Positions 1 to 3,944 of a stretch of DNA of 3,944 nt are shown piece by piece (positions within the stretch are counted from its first letter, which is position 1; each line of letters begins with the position of its first letter). Source of the stretch: Naegleria gruberi (Eukaryota); assembly GCA_000004985.1 (NCBI GenBank), contig GG739202.1; one strand, given 5' to 3'. Both the position numbers and the translations under genes were made by a program. The notes below the pieces were generated by a model. The model was not told where the DNA came from and did not search any database. It saw only the letters and a list, made by a program, of their open reading frames with translations.

Positions 1-152
1 TCTTTTATTTCATCATCATCATTCAATGGCAAAGTGGGATTATTAAAGGCTCTTTTAAAATCTTCCATCTTTTGTATTTTCTTCATTTCCCATTTTGAAA
101 TGGTATCAATATTTGCATCATTATGAATATATTCCTTTCTCTTTAGAGTCAT
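1..152 (-). CDS. Hypothetical protein, N-terminal 50 codons only. The gene continues beyond the left edge of the window (or into an intron).
   Basis: The reverse complement of 1-152 reads ATG(152-150) MTLKRKEYIHNDANIDTISKWEMKKIQKMEDFKRAFNNPTLPLNDDDEIK with no stop down to position 3. An in-frame stop (TGA, revcomp of 180-182) lies just upstream, so 152 is the first ATG of the frame. The start context on the minus strand is aataataaaaATG, typical of dictyostelids. The ORF was too short or edge-truncated for the supplied ORF track. I recognise no domain. Confidence 0.45.
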   Translation of the reverse strand, partial: MTLKRKEYIHNDANIDTISKWEMKKIQKMEDFKRAFNNPTLPLNDDDEIK

Positions 153-401
153 TTTTATTATTGTGAAAATTGTTAAATGTCATTAATTATTATCATGTAA
201 TTAGTTACTTTCGAATAGAGGATGTGATTATTGTCAGTTGACCAAGTTCATGAGAATACAGTATGATTTGAAGGCTTTAGAAATTAAGATTGTATTTAAC
301 TTTCAAAGAACACGATACAGCCTTTTAACATTTTCCAAAGCAAAAAAAAAGCCTCAACAAGTCAATTAAATAACCTTTTTCTCCCTCACTTAATCACAAC
401 A
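153..401. promoter_or_regulatory. Shared 249-bp intergenic region between the head-to-head minus-strand gene (ATG 152) and plus-strand gene (ATG 402). Presumed bidirectional promoter and 5' UTRs. Contains an A9 tract at 342-350.
   Basis: It lies between two divergently oriented start codons. It is non-coding in all frames over most of its length. The A-run gcAAAAAAAAAgcc is at 342-350. Its position is the only evidence. No specific motif was recognised. Confidence 0.4.
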
Positions 402-749
402 ATGGACTCAAACAAGCCTTCAACTCATCATCATCATGCTATAATGATACAACAATTGCATGAACATTCAATCAATGTAGATTTGACTAATCCATATATT
501 CTTCCTCCTCCTATTTATTCTCAAATTGCATTTCCTGTTAACAAATCTGAAACTAGCCTATTTCAACAACCTATGAACAATTCTCAACAACAACTATTTG
601 ATACCACCAACATTACTACTGCTACCCCTAATGCACCTAATACTCCTACTATTACCAATGTTCATGAATCATCAAGTAAGAAGAGGAAGGCTAAATCCAA
701 AGCCTATGAAATTGTCGATTCTACTACCATCACTGCTACTCCTAAATCA
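402..749 (+). CDS. Hypothetical low-complexity protein (H4 run, Gln/Asn/Thr-rich, basic SKKRKAKSK patch). 5' portion only (116 codons), truncated by the assembly gap.
   Basis: An ATG at 402 opens a frame that stays open to the first N at 750: MDSNKPSTHHHHAIMIQQLHEHSINVDLTNPYILPPPIYSQIAFPVNKSETSLFQQPMNNSQQQLFDTTNITTATPNAPNTPTITNVHESSSKKRKAKSKAYEIVDSTTITATPKS. The composition is typical of dictyostelid proteins. The 783-aa ORF in the track is an artefact of translating N as X. The true 3' end is unknown. Confidence 0.55.
426..437 (+). repeat. (CAT)4 trinucleotide repeat encoding His4 in the upstream hypothetical protein. The same CAT/ATC/ATG repeat unit also occurs at 11-22 and 3518-3529.
   Basis: Seen directly. 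Confidence 0.85.
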
Positions 750-2712
750 NNNNNNNNNNNNNNNNNNNNNNNNNNNNNNNNNNNNNNNNNNNNNNNNNNN
801 NNNNNNNNNNNNNNNNNNNNNNNNNNNNNNNNNNNNNNNNNNNNNNNNNNNNNNNNNNNNNNNNNNNNNNNNNNNNNNNNNNNNNNNNNNNNNNNNNNNN
901 NNNNNNNNNNNNNNNNNNNNNNNNNNNNNNNNNNNNNNNNNNNNNNNNNNNNNNNNNNNNNNNNNNNNNNNNNNNNNNNNNNNNNNNNNNNNNNNNNNNN
1001 NNNNNNNNNNNNNNNNNNNNNNNNNNNNNNNNNNNNNNNNNNNNNNNNNNNNNNNNNNNNNNNNNNNNNNNNNNNNNNNNNNNNNNNNNNNNNNNNNNNN
1101 NNNNNNNNNNNNNNNNNNNNNNNNNNNNNNNNNNNNNNNNNNNNNNNNNNNNNNNNNNNNNNNNNNNNNNNNNNNNNNNNNNNNNNNNNNNNNNNNNNNN
1201 NNNNNNNNNNNNNNNNNNNNNNNNNNNNNNNNNNNNNNNNNNNNNNNNNNNNNNNNNNNNNNNNNNNNNNNNNNNNNNNNNNNNNNNNNNNNNNNNNNNN
1301 NNNNNNNNNNNNNNNNNNNNNNNNNNNNNNNNNNNNNNNNNNNNNNNNNNNNNNNNNNNNNNNNNNNNNNNNNNNNNNNNNNNNNNNNNNNNNNNNNNNN
1401 NNNNNNNNNNNNNNNNNNNNNNNNNNNNNNNNNNNNNNNNNNNNNNNNNNNNNNNNNNNNNNNNNNNNNNNNNNNNNNNNNNNNNNNNNNNNNNNNNNNN
1501 NNNNNNNNNNNNNNNNNNNNNNNNNNNNNNNNNNNNNNNNNNNNNNNNNNNNNNNNNNNNNNNNNNNNNNNNNNNNNNNNNNNNNNNNNNNNNNNNNNNN
1601 NNNNNNNNNNNNNNNNNNNNNNNNNNNNNNNNNNNNNNNNNNNNNNNNNNNNNNNNNNNNNNNNNNNNNNNNNNNNNNNNNNNNNNNNNNNNNNNNNNNN
1701 NNNNNNNNNNNNNNNNNNNNNNNNNNNNNNNNNNNNNNNNNNNNNNNNNNNNNNNNNNNNNNNNNNNNNNNNNNNNNNNNNNNNNNNNNNNNNNNNNNNN
1801 NNNNNNNNNNNNNNNNNNNNNNNNNNNNNNNNNNNNNNNNNNNNNNNNNNNNNNNNNNNNNNNNNNNNNNNNNNNNNNNNNNNNNNNNNNNNNNNNNNNN
1901 NNNNNNNNNNNNNNNNNNNNNNNNNNNNNNNNNNNNNNNNNNNNNNNNNNNNNNNNNNNNNNNNNNNNNNNNNNNNNNNNNNNNNNNNNNNNNNNNNNNN
2001 NNNNNNNNNNNNNNNNNNNNNNNNNNNNNNNNNNNNNNNNNNNNNNNNNNNNNNNNNNNNNNNNNNNNNNNNNNNNNNNNNNNNNNNNNNNNNNNNNNNN
2101 NNNNNNNNNNNNNNNNNNNNNNNNNNNNNNNNNNNNNNNNNNNNNNNNNNNNNNNNNNNNNNNNNNNNNNNNNNNNNNNNNNNNNNNNNNNNNNNNNNNN
2201 NNNNNNNNNNNNNNNNNNNNNNNNNNNNNNNNNNNNNNNNNNNNNNNNNNNNNNNNNNNNNNNNNNNNNNNNNNNNNNNNNNNNNNNNNNNNNNNNNNNN
2301 NNNNNNNNNNNNNNNNNNNNNNNNNNNNNNNNNNNNNNNNNNNNNNNNNNNNNNNNNNNNNNNNNNNNNNNNNNNNNNNNNNNNNNNNNNNNNNNNNNNN
2401 NNNNNNNNNNNNNNNNNNNNNNNNNNNNNNNNNNNNNNNNNNNNNNNNNNNNNNNNNNNNNNNNNNNNNNNNNNNNNNNNNNNNNNNNNNNNNNNNNNNN
2501 NNNNNNNNNNNNNNNNNNNNNNNNNNNNNNNNNNNNNNNNNNNNNNNNNNNNNNNNNNNNNNNNNNNNNNNNNNNNNNNNNNNNNNNNNNNNNNNNNNNN
2601 NNNNNNNNNNNNNNNNNNNNNNNNNNNNNNNNNNNNNNNNNNNNNNNNNNNNNNNNNNNNNNNNNNNNNNNNNNNNNNNNNNNNNNNNNNNNNNNNNNNN
2701 NNNNNNNNNNNN
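750..2712. other. Assembly gap or masked region, 1963 consecutive N.
   Basis: An uninterrupted run of n from 750 to 2712. The length is probably an estimate, so frame relationships across it are meaningless. Confidence 0.99.
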
Positions 2713-2798: not shown

Positions 2799-3944
2799 AT
2801 GGATCATCAACATACAACAATAACAAATCCATCCTCAACATCAGCATCAACATCTTTAAAAACACCACAAGATTATATTAAAGAATATGAATTAATACTA
2901 TTAAATAATCCTAATGATTATTATACTTGGGAGAAGTATATTAAAGTATTAGAAATTGAAGAATCTAGTGATAAAGTATTAAAAGGCTATGAAAAATTTC
3001 TTGAACAATTTCCATTATTATTTGGATATTGGAAAAAGTATGCAACATTAACCTATCAAGTAACACAATCCTATGAAAAGACAATTCAAGTCTATGAAAA
3101 GAGTGTTGATAAAAAGACAGGTATATTTAATAATCCAGATTTATGGGCAAATTATTGTTTATTTGTTGCTGAACAATCACCTGATGTTAATGAAATTAGA
3201 AATTTATTTGAAAAGGCTATTCAAATTATTGGTAATGATTATTATGCTAGAACTTTATGGGAAAATTATATTGAATTTGAAATTTCACAAGATGAATATG
3301 AAAAAGTTGTAAAATTATACAAGAGAGCAATTCAAGTACCATGTAGAGATTTAACTTTAATTTGGTCTCAATTTAAAGATTTTTTAAAAAAACATTATGA
3401 TAATATTACTACAGTTCAAATACAAGTATTAATAATACAAGTAGTGTGGTGTGTGGTGGTGTTGGTGATGGTAATAGTATTAATAATACTACTAATAATA
3501 ATACTACTGATACATTGTCATCATCATCAAATGTAGATGTAAATTCCAATCAAAATGTTAATATAAAACAAATAATACAAACAAGTGAAGAAGAAGCAAT
3601 TTATCAACAATCACAAAAATTGAATGATTTAACAAGTTATTGGAGAGAACAATTATATATGCCAACTAAAAAAGAATTGGAAAGAATTCGTTCATTTGAA
3701 GATTTAATACGTAGACCATATTTTCATCCACAACCATTTCAAGATTATGAATTGGAACATTTTAGAAAATATATTGAAAATGAAAAGAATGAATATTATC
3801 AAAAACAAAACAAGTGGTGTGATCAAGAACATTTAATTCAAACATTTGAAAGATTTATTGTTTATTGTTCTTATTATATTGAATTTTGGAATTTATATTT
3901 TAATTTTTTAAAATCTGAAAATTTAAATTTAAATGAATTATATG
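2799..3944 (+). CDS. prpf39: Pre-mRNA-processing factor 39 (PRP39/PRPF39)-like HAT-repeat splicing factor. The N-terminal roughly 380 codons are visible and the gene continues beyond the right edge. The coding frame changes between 3404 and 3534. Frame 0 runs 2799 to about 3413. Frame 2 (codons starting at coordinates congruent to 2 mod 3) runs from about 3404 to 3944.
   Basis: The frame-0 translation is MDHQHTT...YYTWEKYIKVLE...FPLLFGYWKKYATL...PDLWANYCLF...ARTLWENYIEFEISQDEYEKVVKLYKRAIQVPCRDLTLIWSQFKDFLKKHYDN. This reproduces the spacing and key residues of the N-terminal HAT repeats of metazoan PRPF39 (GYWKKYADLE, RLWEMYINWE, YDRILGIPTQ...FQRFKEH) as I remember them. The frame-2 translation further on is ...NVNIKQIIQTSEEEAIYQQSQKLNDLTSYWREQLYMPTKKELERIRSFEDLIRRPYFHPQPFQDYELEHFRKYIENEKNEYYQKQNKWCDQEHLIQTFERFIVYCSYYIEFWNLYFNFL. 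This matches the next PRPF39 block (..KRPYFHVKPL..KNWKEYLEFEIENG..ERCVISCALYEEFWIKYAKY). The ATG at 2799 is the first in the frame and has an A9 context. The similarity is judged from memory, not from a search. Confidence 0.8.
3441..3472 (+). repeat. GT/GGT-rich low-complexity tract (gtagtgtggtgtgtggtggtgttggtgatggt) inside the PRP39-like linker.
   Basis: Seen directly. The composition is unusual (G+T-rich) in an otherwise A-rich coding context. In frame 2 it encodes SVVCGGVGDG, loosely comparable to the Gly/Asp-rich linker of animal PRPF39. Confidence 0.6.
3473..3510 (+). repeat. Imperfect tandem duplication (taataatactac / taataataatactac) built from AAT/ACT codons. In frame 2 it encodes an Asn/Thr tract (NSINNTTNNNTT).
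   Basis: Seen directly. 3481-3492 taataatactac is followed by 3493-3507 taataataatactac. It is trinucleotide-based low complexity, typical of dictyostelid coding sequence. Confidence 0.6.

What the first reader, a model, noticed from the sequence alone, without database searches (positions are those of the whole stretch)
3404..3536. Frame 0 to frame 2 switch inside the PRP39-like gene with no canonical intron to explain it
Conserved PRP39 blocks lie in frame 0 upstream of about 3413 and in frame 2 downstream of about 3554. Frame 2 is closed by TAA at 3401-3403. Frame 0 is closed by TAG at 3534-3536. The transition therefore must occur in this 130-nt window and needs a net 2-nt removal or 1-nt insertion. 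I enumerated every GT..AG pair compatible with that phase. The only candidates are 16-37 nt, which is far too short. One is a 140-nt GTGGTG-initiated segment that is GC-rich and non-consensus. The last is 3533-3585 (53 nt, GTAGAT..AAG), which would delete the conserved-looking NVNIKQIIQTSEEE segment. Frame 2 through the window gives a plausible dictyostelid linker, SSNTSINNTSSVVCGGVGDGNSINNTTNNNTTDTLSSSSNVDVNSNQ. Frame 0 gives an implausible Val/Leu/Ile string. The likeliest explanation is a 1-bp deletion or 2-bp insertion error near 3404-3440 in a draft assembly that already has a large gap nearby. A genuine frameshift allele (pseudogene) or an unusual splice cannot be excluded.
Basis: seen in the sequence. 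Interest (0 to 1): 0.5.

Follow-up and report, generated by a model that had tools for sequence, protein, structure and literature searches.

The report
Probable sequencing indel in Naegleria PRP39
The reading-frame break is really in the deposited sequence, but it is most likely a one-base sequencing or assembly error in a tiny draft scaffold of the amoeba Naegleria gruberi, and the public gene model hides it with an invented 50-base intron.

Summary
The frame switch is real in the deposited sequence. Frame 0 (ATG 2799) stays open to TAG 3534. Frame 2 opens after TGA 3398 and TAA 3401 and runs to the window end.

The organism is Naegleria gruberi, not a dictyostelid. The window is a whole 3,944-nt scaffold made of a 749-nt contig, 1,963 N and a 1,232-nt contig.

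That intron deletes WSQFKDFLKKHYDNITT. In this stretch W, S, Q, F, K, F and K are invariant in four heterolobosean orthologues, and all four orthologous genes are uninterrupted ORFs.

The only other GT..AG pair of at least 40 nt that keeps the conserved residues is 3451-3536 (86 nt). It lies in triplet-periodic sequence with frame-2 codon bias. No slippery heptamer lies in the permitted zone.

Exact repeats keep 3425-3504 in one phase, which places the break most likely at 3404-3424. A codon-usage score instead peaks near 3452-3455.

Best reading: a missing base, or a length error of 1 mod 3, in a low-coverage Sanger contig (about 0.75). This is unproven because no reads or transcripts could be reached. 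The finding is ordinary; its value is a correction to the annotation.

The parts
2799..3403 (+). PRP39 coding sequence read in frame 0, from ATG 2799. It holds the N-terminal HAT repeats. Conservation runs to KKH (3387-3395). Frame 0 must be used through 3403 because frame 2 has stops at 3398 and 3401.
   Evidence: HAT_PRP39_N matches residues 34-194 and reaches the end of the profile (168/168).
3398..3403 (+). TGA and TAA, the last two stop codons of frame 2. They set the lower bound of the switch zone.
3404..3424 (+). Most probable position of the missing base (or of a length error of 1 mod 3).
   Evidence: exact repeats at 3425/3476 (14 nt, 51 nt apart), 3430/3496 and 3430/3493 are all separated by multiples of 3, so no net indel lies between 3425 and 3504; a 14-nt exact repeat or longer arises in 1 of 1000 dinucleotide shuffles. 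Against: the codon score peaks at 3452-3455.
3404..3536 (+). Zone in which frame 0 and frame 2 are both open. A single-indel switch must occur here.
3425..3944 (+). PRP39 coding sequence read in frame 2. It comprises an N/S/T/G-rich linker (to about 3562), then conserved sequence up to the start of the C-terminal HAT repeats. It runs off the scaffold end.
   Evidence: The frame-2 codon score is positive from about 3440 in the 12-codon windows, and the switch-point scan falls steeply for switches placed after about 3460. HAT_PRP39_C matches residues 296-375 of the repaired protein.
3534..3536 (+). TAG, the first stop codon of frame 0. It sets the upper bound of the switch zone.
3365..3414 (+). 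The 50-nt 'intron' (GTCTCA..ACAG) of the deposited model EFC35474.1 / XP_002668218.1. Judged an annotation patch over the frame break.
   Evidence: reconstructs the model as 2799-3364 + 3415-3859. The intron removes WSQFKDFLKKHYDNITT. W, S, Q, F, K, F and K of that stretch are invariant in 5 heterolobosean sequences. HAT_PRP39_N falls from 132.7 to 126.7 bits and loses profile positions 160-168. The orthologous genes have no intron.
3451..3536 (+). The only other GT..AG pair of at least 40 nt that keeps all conserved residues (86 nt, GTGTGG..TGTAG). Rejected as an intron.
   Evidence: GC 0.30, above the 0.24 of the gene; frame-2 codon score of +8 to +13 bits per 12 codons inside it; the repeats inside it are spaced in multiples of 3.
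3386..3392 (+). An A7 run, the last of three slippery-type heptamers in frame 0 (starting at 3380, 3383 and 3386). Slipping by -1 here runs into TGA 3398, so it cannot join the two frames.
   Evidence: No X XXY YYZ heptamer lies within 3404-3533.
750..2712 (.). A run of 1,963 N. The scaffold is a 749-nt contig plus a 1,232-nt contig (2713-3944).

Best explanation
The window is a complete, very small scaffold of the Sanger draft genome of Naegleria gruberi NEG-M. It carries the 5' two thirds of the PRP39 gene, which encodes a U1 snRNP splicing factor. The gene is most likely one uninterrupted ORF, as in its relatives.

The deposited sequence probably lacks one base, or carries a length error equal to 1 missing or 2 extra bases modulo 3. 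The error sits in the low-complexity linker between the two HAT-repeat domains, most probably at 3404-3424. This throws the reading from frame 0 into frame 2.

The automatic gene model then restored an ORF by inventing a 50-nt GT..AG intron (3365-3414), which cuts out conserved residues.

Shown: the frame break, the organism, the exon structure of the model, the conservation of the deleted residues, the intron-less orthologues, and the absence of a frameshifting signal.

Inferred: that the break is an error in the sequence rather than a property of the genome.
For: 1. Organism and assembly. The best hit is 'predicted protein, partial [Naegleria gruberi]', EFC35474.1 / XP_002668218.1, on a contig of 3,944 nt, which is the window itself. 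The assembly is Sanger-based with 1,977 contigs in 784 scaffolds (PMC9928731 and PMC6125883). The scaffold is 749 nt + 1,963 N + 1,232 nt, so it was built from very few reads. The zone 3404-3424 lies 692-712 nt from the left end of the second contig, about one Sanger read length. That last point is inference.

2. Both sides are intact. [quoted passage not shown] Frame 2 has no stop for 180 codons after 3403, against 0.174 stops per codon before it.

3. The orthologous genes of N. lovaniensis, N. fowleri, an unnamed relative (P0004) and Willaertia magna are single ORFs of exactly 3 x (aa + 1) nt, with no internal stop.

4. The annotated intron removes invariant residues and the end of the HAT_PRP39_N domain.

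5. 3456-3536 carries frame-2 codon bias. 8 of 9 exact repeats of at least 8 nt in 3396-3562 are spaced in multiples of 3. This is expected of coding low-complexity sequence, not of an intron.

6. No slippery heptamer lies in 3404-3533.
Against: - No read, trace, EST, RNA-seq or second assembly of N. gruberi could be reached, so the error is not demonstrated.
- The exact site is unresolved. The repeat phase points to 3404-3424, but a codon-usage score trained on 328 codons of this gene peaks at 3452-3455, with a plateau over 3404-3458.
- There is no homopolymer longer than 3 nt in 3404-3424, so no obvious error-prone run.
- Read in frame 2, the N. gruberi linker is about 30 residues longer than in the other Naegleria species. 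A real intron of about 90 nt would remove that excess.
Confidence: 0.75

Rival explanations
1. A genuine frameshift allele. The NEG-M genome really carries this sequence on at least one haplotype, as a recent loss-of-function mutation of PRP39. An intact allele elsewhere, unassembled or not annotated, would allow the cell to tolerate it.
For: - N. gruberi is reported as heterozygous (PMC9928731, citing Fritz-Laylin 2010).
- Tiny orphan scaffolds can be divergent haplotypes.
- The downstream ORF is fully intact, which fits a very recent mutation as well as it fits an error.
- The absence of a second N. gruberi PRP39 is weak evidence. The same tool missed known relatives.
Against: - PRP39 belongs to the core splicing machinery, and N. 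gruberi has introns (1.7 exons per gene, PMC8296547).
- No second copy was seen.
- There is no sign of decay anywhere else in 1,146 nt.
- A scaffold made of a 749-nt and a 1,232-nt contig is the typical place for a base-calling error.
Confidence: 0.13
2. A real spliceosomal intron restores the frame. It would be either the annotated 3365-3414 (50 nt) or 3451-3536 (86 nt).
For: - Both candidates have GT..AG ends and the right phase.
- Naegleria introns are short: median 80 bp in N. lovaniensis (PMC6125883), and a minimum of 30 bp was used for N. fowleri (PMC8296547).
- 3365-3414 has a GC content of 0.18.
- Removing 3451-3536 would bring the linker close to the length seen in N. fowleri and N. 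lovaniensis.
Against: - 3365-3414 deletes W, S, Q, F, K, F and K, which are invariant in 5 heterolobosean sequences, and it truncates HAT_PRP39_N.
- 3451-3536 begins with GTGTGG and is richer in GC (0.30) than the exons. It has frame-2 codon bias and triplet-spaced repeats. It would also leave the hydrophobic string VQIQVLIIQVVW in a linker that is hydrophilic in every relative.
- All four orthologous genes have no intron at all.
Confidence: 0.07
3. Recoding at expression. The genome is as deposited, and the frame is restored by programmed -1 ribosomal frameshifting, transcriptional slippage or translational bypass.
For: - Frame 0 to frame 2 is formally a -1 shift.
- Both frames overlap for 133 nt.
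- The region folds somewhat better than shuffles: -36.9 kcal/mol, z = -1.9, with 7 of 200 shuffles folding as well.
Against: - No X XXY YYZ heptamer lies in 3404-3533.
- The three heptamers at 3380-3392, including the A7 run, lie upstream of the frame-2 stops TGA 3398 and TAA 3401, so slipping there terminates at once.
- The fold z-score is unremarkable.
- From my own knowledge, no such mechanism is known for nuclear genes of Heterolobosea.
- The relatives encode the protein in one frame.
Confidence: 0.02

Closest known systems
PRP39 / PRPF39 (U1 snRNP-associated pre-mRNA processing factor 39, a HAT-repeat protein)
   Same: HAT_PRP39_N (132.7 bits) and HAT_PRP39_C (94.3 bits) are both far above Pfam's cut-offs. 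[quoted passage not shown]
   Different: Only the N-terminal 382 or so residues are on the scaffold, out of roughly 625-694 in relatives. The inter-domain linker carries about 30 extra N/S/T/G-rich residues. The deposited reading frame is broken.
Frameshift-compensating pseudo-introns in automatic eukaryotic gene models
   Same: A very short GT..AG interval (50 nt) with a weak donor (GTCTCA) sits exactly over a frame break. Its removal restores an ORF at the price of conserved residues. The same model also stops at 3859, directly before a GT, although the conserved ORF continues to the scaffold end.
   Different: Nothing distinguishes this case from the usual one. That gene predictors behave in this way is my own knowledge and was not tested here.
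Programmed -1 ribosomal frameshifting (viral gag-pol type)
   Same: The direction of the shift (0 to -1) and a long overlap of the two ORFs.
   Different: No slippery heptamer lies in the permitted zone, there is no outstanding downstream structure, and the orthologues are encoded in a single frame.

Membership tests
PRP39 / PRPF39 family | N-terminal PRP39 HAT-repeat domain (Pfam PF23240) above the gathering score | tested here: met
   132.7 bits against a cut-off of 27.7. Residues 34-194 match profile positions 7-168 of 168 in the repaired protein.
PRP39 / PRPF39 family | C-terminal PRP39 HAT-repeat domain (Pfam PF23241) | tested here: met
   94.3 bits against a cut-off of 33. Only profile positions 2-73 of 139 are matched because the scaffold ends.
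PRP39 / PRPF39 family | Orthology to PRP39 of close relatives (highest-scoring hits, colinear alignment) | tested here: met
   The N. lovaniensis, N. fowleri and Willaertia magna proteins align along the whole length. Conserved gene neighbours could not be confirmed in the window.
Spliceosomal (U2-type) intron | GT..AG ends with a length and phase that restore the ORF | tested here: met
   3365-3414 (50 nt) and 3451-3536 (86 nt), among others.
Spliceosomal (U2-type) intron | Removal leaves the conserved protein sequence intact | tested here: not met
   3365-3414 removes WSQFKDFLKKHYDNITT, in which W, S, Q, F, K, F and K are invariant in 5 sequences, and it costs 6 bits and 9 profile positions of HAT_PRP39_N. 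3451-3536 keeps the conserved residues but removes sequence with frame-2 codon bias.
Spliceosomal (U2-type) intron | Non-coding character: no codon bias, no triplet periodicity, base composition unlike the exons | tested here: not met
   Frame-2 codon score is +8 to +13 bits per 12 codons across 3456-3536. 8 of 9 repeats are spaced in multiples of 3. GC is 0.30 for 3451-3536 against 0.24 for the gene.
Spliceosomal (U2-type) intron | An intron at the same place in orthologues | tested here: not met
   all four orthologous genes are uninterrupted ORFs.
Spliceosomal (U2-type) intron | A spliced transcript | not testable with these tools
   No N. gruberi EST or RNA-seq data could be reached. The exact-product look-ups found nothing.
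Programmed -1 ribosomal frameshift site | A slippery heptamer X XXY YYZ in the zero frame, inside the overlap of the two ORFs | tested here: not met
   none in 3404-3533. Those starting at 3380, 3383 and 3386 lie before the frame-2 stops at 3398 and 3401.
Programmed -1 ribosomal frameshift site | A stable stimulatory structure a few nucleotides downstream | tested here: inconclusive
   3380-3560 folds at -36.9 kcal/mol, z = -1.9. Without a slippery site there is no anchor position to test.
Sequencing or assembly indel artefact | Low-coverage draft context | tested here: met
   a whole scaffold of 3,944 nt made of contigs of 749 and 1,232 nt joined by 1,963 N, from a Sanger assembly. Actual read depth is unknown.
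Sequencing or assembly indel artefact | Intact, conserved ORF on both sides, and a single frame in relatives | tested here: met
Sequencing or assembly indel artefact | Independent reads or a second assembly that show a different length | not testable with these tools
   The metagenome scan found no close relative. A Nanopore + Illumina re-assembly of N. gruberi exists (PMC12695648) but is not in the collections.

The most novel reading that the evidence does not exclude
The genome of N. gruberi really has this frame break in its only PRP39 gene, and the cell still makes full-length protein by an unrecognised recoding event in the 3404-3460 linker. That event would be frameshifting without a canonical slippery site, or excision of a tiny non-canonical intron.
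Probability: 0.02. Interest if true: 0.6.

Novelty: not a real feature. Interest (0 to 1): 0.08.

Why it matters
It matters little for biology.

In practice, the deposited protein XP_002668218.1 / EFC35474.1 is wrong in two places. It lacks 17 residues, seven of them invariant, at the end of the first HAT domain. It also stops 28 codons before the scaffold does. N. gruberi is widely used as the reference heterolobosean in comparative studies of the spliceosome and of intron evolution. A phantom intron in a splicing-factor gene is the kind of error that propagates into counts of intron gain and loss.

If the break proved genuine, it would be a natural null allele or a recoding event in a core U1 snRNP gene. 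That would be interesting, but nothing here favours it.

Tried and rejected
- **Dictyostelid origin.** Rejected by the homology search.
- **Exact-product look-ups.** I looked up the annotated protein and the 245-aa frame-0 product in public assemblies, including Logan, hoping for independent N. gruberi contigs. Neither is on record.
- **Metagenome scan for close relatives** that would make the linker alignable. The best hit was 30-40% identical, so it was useless for this purpose.
- **Search with the C-terminal half of the N. lovaniensis protein** for the missing 3' part of the N. gruberi gene. It returned nothing, not even the query's own parent.
- **Search with the whole N. lovaniensis protein.** It did not list the N. 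gruberi protein, although links the two at E = 1e-135. Negative results of that tool cannot be used as evidence of absence. I therefore weakened the claim that no second N. gruberi copy exists.
- **Synteny.** The relatives have a C2-domain gene upstream and a CCDC81-like gene downstream. tblastn of those proteins against the window gave only noise.
- **Codon-usage localisation of the switch.** It gave a broad plateau, and the result depended on the training set.
- **The 7-nt tandem duplication GTGTGGT x2 (3444-3457).** It is the only out-of-phase repeat. Removing one copy shifts the frame the wrong way (7 = 1 mod 3, while 2 is needed), so it is not the cause.
- **The 53-nt (3533-3585), 137/140-nt (3449 or 3446 to 3585) and 17-32-nt GT..AG pairs.** These either delete the IKQIIQT segment, whose Q aligns with an invariant Q, or are GC-rich and too short.
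- **Bypass at ATG-TAG-ATG (3531-3539).** The landing site stays in frame 0 and meets TAA at 3540.
- **The genome paper (Cell 2010).** It is not held in the library. No source for the Naegleria splice-site consensus was found. The single example intron recovered from N. lovaniensis (GTAACG..ACAG, 83 nt) is too little to build a model.

Full report
**1. The observation**

- The ORF that starts at ATG 2799 (frame 0) is open to TAG 3534-3536.
- Frame 2 has 35 stops between 2799 and 3403. The last two are TGA 3398-3400 and TAA 3401-3403. It then has none up to the window end at 3944.
- Frame 0 gives MDHQ...LTLIWSQFKDFLKKHYDNITT, followed by the hydrophobic run VQIQVLIIQVVWCVVVLVMVIVLIILLIIILLIHCHHHQM*.
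- Frame 2 gives YYYSSNTSINNTSSVVCGGVGDGNSINNTTNNNTTDTLSSSSNVDVNSNQNVNIKQIIQTSEEEAIYQQSQKLNDLTSYWREQLY... to the end.
- At the upstream frame-2 stop rate of 0.174 per codon, 44 stop-free codons over 3404-3536 are not a chance event.

**2. Where the sequence comes from**

A protein search with the conceptually repaired product shows otherwise.
- The top hit, 337 aa and 95% identical, is 'predicted protein, partial [Naegleria gruberi]'. Its longest contig is 3,944 nt, which is the window itself.
- Its accessions are EFC35474.1 and XP_002668218.1.
- The next hits are N. lovaniensis (59%), N. fowleri (60%) and an unnamed relative from two metagenomes (P0004, 49%). One search added Willaertia magna (P0121).
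- Pfam places HAT_PRP39_N at residues 34-194 and HAT_PRP39_C from residue 296. The break therefore sits in the linker between the two HAT-repeat domains of a PRP39 orthologue.
- The N. gruberi NEG-M assembly was Sanger-sequenced and has 1,977 contigs in 784 scaffolds (PMC9928731 and PMC6125883).
- This scaffold consists of a 749-nt contig, 1,963 N and a 1,232-nt contig.

**3. What the deposited annotation does**

Reconstructing the 337-aa model from the window gives exon 2799-3364, an intron at 3365-3414 (50 nt, GTCTCA..ACAG), and exon 3415-3859.
- The model reads ...DLTLI-C-SNTSINN... The intron deletes WSQFKDFLKKHYDNITT.
A donor may lie anywhere upstream in frame 0.
- One search lists 172 phase-compatible GT/GC..AG pairs.
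- If the conserved residues on both sides must survive (donor after 3395, acceptor before about 3563), only 17-, 20-, 29- and 32-nt pairs and one 86-nt pair (3451-3536, GTGTGG..TGTAG) remain.

**4. Is either intron credible?**

Four lines of evidence say no.
- **Orthologues have no intron.** The genes are single uninterrupted ORFs: N. lovaniensis 1,974 nt for 657 aa, N. fowleri 2,007 nt for 668 aa (in an NCBI assembly and in an independent Logan contig), P0004 1,878 nt for 625 aa, and W. magna 2,085 nt for 694 aa. None has an internal stop.
- **The deleted residues are conserved.** In the five-way alignment, D-L-T-L-I-W-S-Q-F-K-x-F-x-K is invariant. The annotated intron removes seven of these invariant residues. 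In Pfam terms the N-terminal HAT domain reaches the end of its profile (168/168, 132.7 bits) only in the repaired protein. In the deposited model it stops at 159/168 with 126.7 bits.
- **The sequence inside 3451-3536 looks coding.** A codon log-odds score trained on the 328 confidently coding codons of this gene gives frame 2 +8 to +13 bits per 12 codons over 3456-3536, and gives frame 0 -7 to -14 bits. GC is 0.30, not lower than the exons.
- **The repeats are triplet-spaced.** 8 of 9 exact repeats of at least 8 nt in 3396-3562 are spaced by multiples of 3. This is the signature of codon-wise low-complexity sequence.

Intron length alone would not have excluded these candidates. Naegleria introns are short: median 80 bp in N. 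lovaniensis (PMC6125883), average 203 bp in N. gruberi, and a 30-bp minimum used for N. fowleri (PMC8296547).

**5. Recoding**

Going from frame 0 to frame 2 is formally a -1 shift.
- A scan for X XXY YYZ heptamers in frame 0 finds three, starting at 3380, 3383 and 3386. The last is an A7 run. All lie upstream of the frame-2 stops at 3398 and 3401, so slipping there terminates at once.
- There is none in 3404-3533.
- The region folds at -36.9 kcal/mol with z = -1.9, which is unremarkable.
- The same stops rule out transcriptional slippage at the A7 run.

**6. Where the break lies**

Frame 0 must be used through 3403. The switch-point scan falls steeply for any switch placed after about 3460, so frame 2 must be in use by then.

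Two indicators disagree within that interval.
- The codon score is highest for a switch at 3452-3455, inside a GT-rich stretch. Tandem Repeats Finder reads that stretch as an imperfect period-3 array. The plateau spans 3404-3458, and the training set is a helical HAT protein, which favours Q, L, V and I codons.
- The repeat structure points further upstream. The 14-mer AGTATTAATAATAC occurs at 3425 and 3476, 51 nt apart. TAATAATAC occurs at 3430 and 3496 (66 nt apart), and TAATAATA at 3430 and 3493 (63 nt apart). A 14-nt exact repeat or longer arises in only 1 of 1000 dinucleotide shuffles.

These copies straddle the GT-rich stretch and are all in phase. There is therefore no net indel between 3425 and 3504, and both copies should be read alike, as S-I-N-N-T in frame 2. 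That places the break at 3404-3424.

I give this more weight, also because TVQIQVLIIQVVW would be a strange insert in a linker that is hydrophilic in every relative. The site is not settled.

**7. Best explanation**

A base is missing from the deposited sequence, or more generally there is a length error of -1 or +2 modulo 3. The cause could be a base-calling error or a slightly misaligned overlap of two reads in low-complexity sequence.
- The second contig is 1,232 nt long, and the first contig is 749 nt, about one read.
- The zone 3404-3424 lies 692-712 nt from the left end of the second contig. That is where the tail of a read starting at the contig end would fall. This is inference from contig sizes only; I have no read layout.
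- The gene predictor then patched the break with the best available GT..AG pair.
- I put this explanation at about 0.75.

**8. Rivals**
- **A genuine frameshift allele (0.13).** It cannot be separated from an error without reads. N. gruberi is reported to be heterozygous. My evidence that there is no second PRP39 copy is weak, because the search tool demonstrably misses relatives.
- **A real intron (0.07).** It is disfavoured for the reasons in section 4. Its one attraction is that the frame-2 linker is about 30 residues longer than in the other Naegleria species.
- **Recoding (0.02).** It has no supporting signal.

**9. What would settle it**

A Nanopore assembly polished with Illumina reads and re-annotated with RNA-seq exists for N. 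gruberi (PMC12695648), and public genomic and RNA-seq reads exist. Neither is in the collections available here. Comparing 3380-3560 with those data, or a simple PCR on DNA and cDNA, would decide among all four readings.

**10. Verdict**

The organism is Naegleria gruberi, not a dictyostelid. GT..AG candidates do exist, and one is used in the public record. The useful outcome is an annotation correction, not a new biological feature.

Noticed in passing
window 3860-3944: The deposited model ends at 3859 (..ERFI), directly before GTTTAT. Frame 2 continues without a stop to the scaffold end as VYCSYYIEFWNLYFNFLKSENLNLNELY, which aligns with VYCSYYTEFWNRYISFLEKQNL of the orthologues. The model is therefore 28 codons shorter than the scaffold supports.
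   Followed up: partly
window 3404-3500 (frame 2): Read in frame 2, the N. gruberi linker between the two HAT domains carries about 30 extra N/S/T/G-rich residues (..SSNTSINNTSSVVCGGVGDGNSINNTTNNN..). These are absent from N. fowleri, N. lovaniensis, P0004 and Willaertia. The stretch is built from 15-nt and 51-nt in-phase repeats.
   Followed up: partly
window 402-749 (+), running into the gap: An open ORF of at least 116 codons starts at ATG 402 (MDSNKPSTHHHHAIMIQQLHEH...TPKS). It is T/P/N/Q-rich with strong C-over-G skew (GC skew about -0.5). It has no Pfam match.
   Followed up: partly
window 1-152 (-): A 50-codon ORF starts at ATG 152 on the minus strand and runs off the left end (MTLKRKEYIHNDANIDTISKWEMKKIQKMEDFKRAFNNPTLPLNDDDEIK). 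It has no significant Pfam match.
   Followed up: partly
L001, L002, L004, L086 compared with window 1-749: In N. lovaniensis, N. fowleri, the P0004 species and Willaertia magna, PRP39 is flanked by a divergently transcribed C2-domain gene upstream and a convergent CCDC81-like gene downstream. tblastn finds no trace of the C2 protein in the window. Either that gene lies wholly inside the N run (about 2.1 kb needed, 1,963 N given), or synteny is broken, or the scaffold join is wrong.
   Followed up: partly
window 2799-3944 compared with the orthologous genes: The N. gruberi PRP39 sequence has 24% GC. The values are 33% in N. lovaniensis and N. fowleri, 37% in the P0004 species and 20% in W. magna. 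The N. gruberi genome average is 33-35%. Low GC may have contributed to poor clone coverage of this locus; that is speculation.
   Followed up: no
window 3444-3457: A perfect 7-nt tandem duplication, GTGTGGT x2, is the only out-of-phase repeat in the linker. Deleting one copy does not restore the frame.
   Followed up: yes
L001 4994-6696 (-), N. lovaniensis CCDC81-like gene: This model contains one 83-nt GT..AG intron (GTAACG..ACAG, GC 0.46). The N. fowleri orthologue is annotated as an uninterrupted 625-codon ORF. This may be another gene-model patch or a real lineage-specific intron.
   Followed up: no
tool behaviour: the search for homologous proteins returned no hit for the C-terminal 301 residues of P0002, not even P0002 itself. 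With full-length P0002 as the query it did not list P0001, although links the two at E = 1e-135. Absence of a hit in this tool is not evidence of absence.
   Followed up: yes
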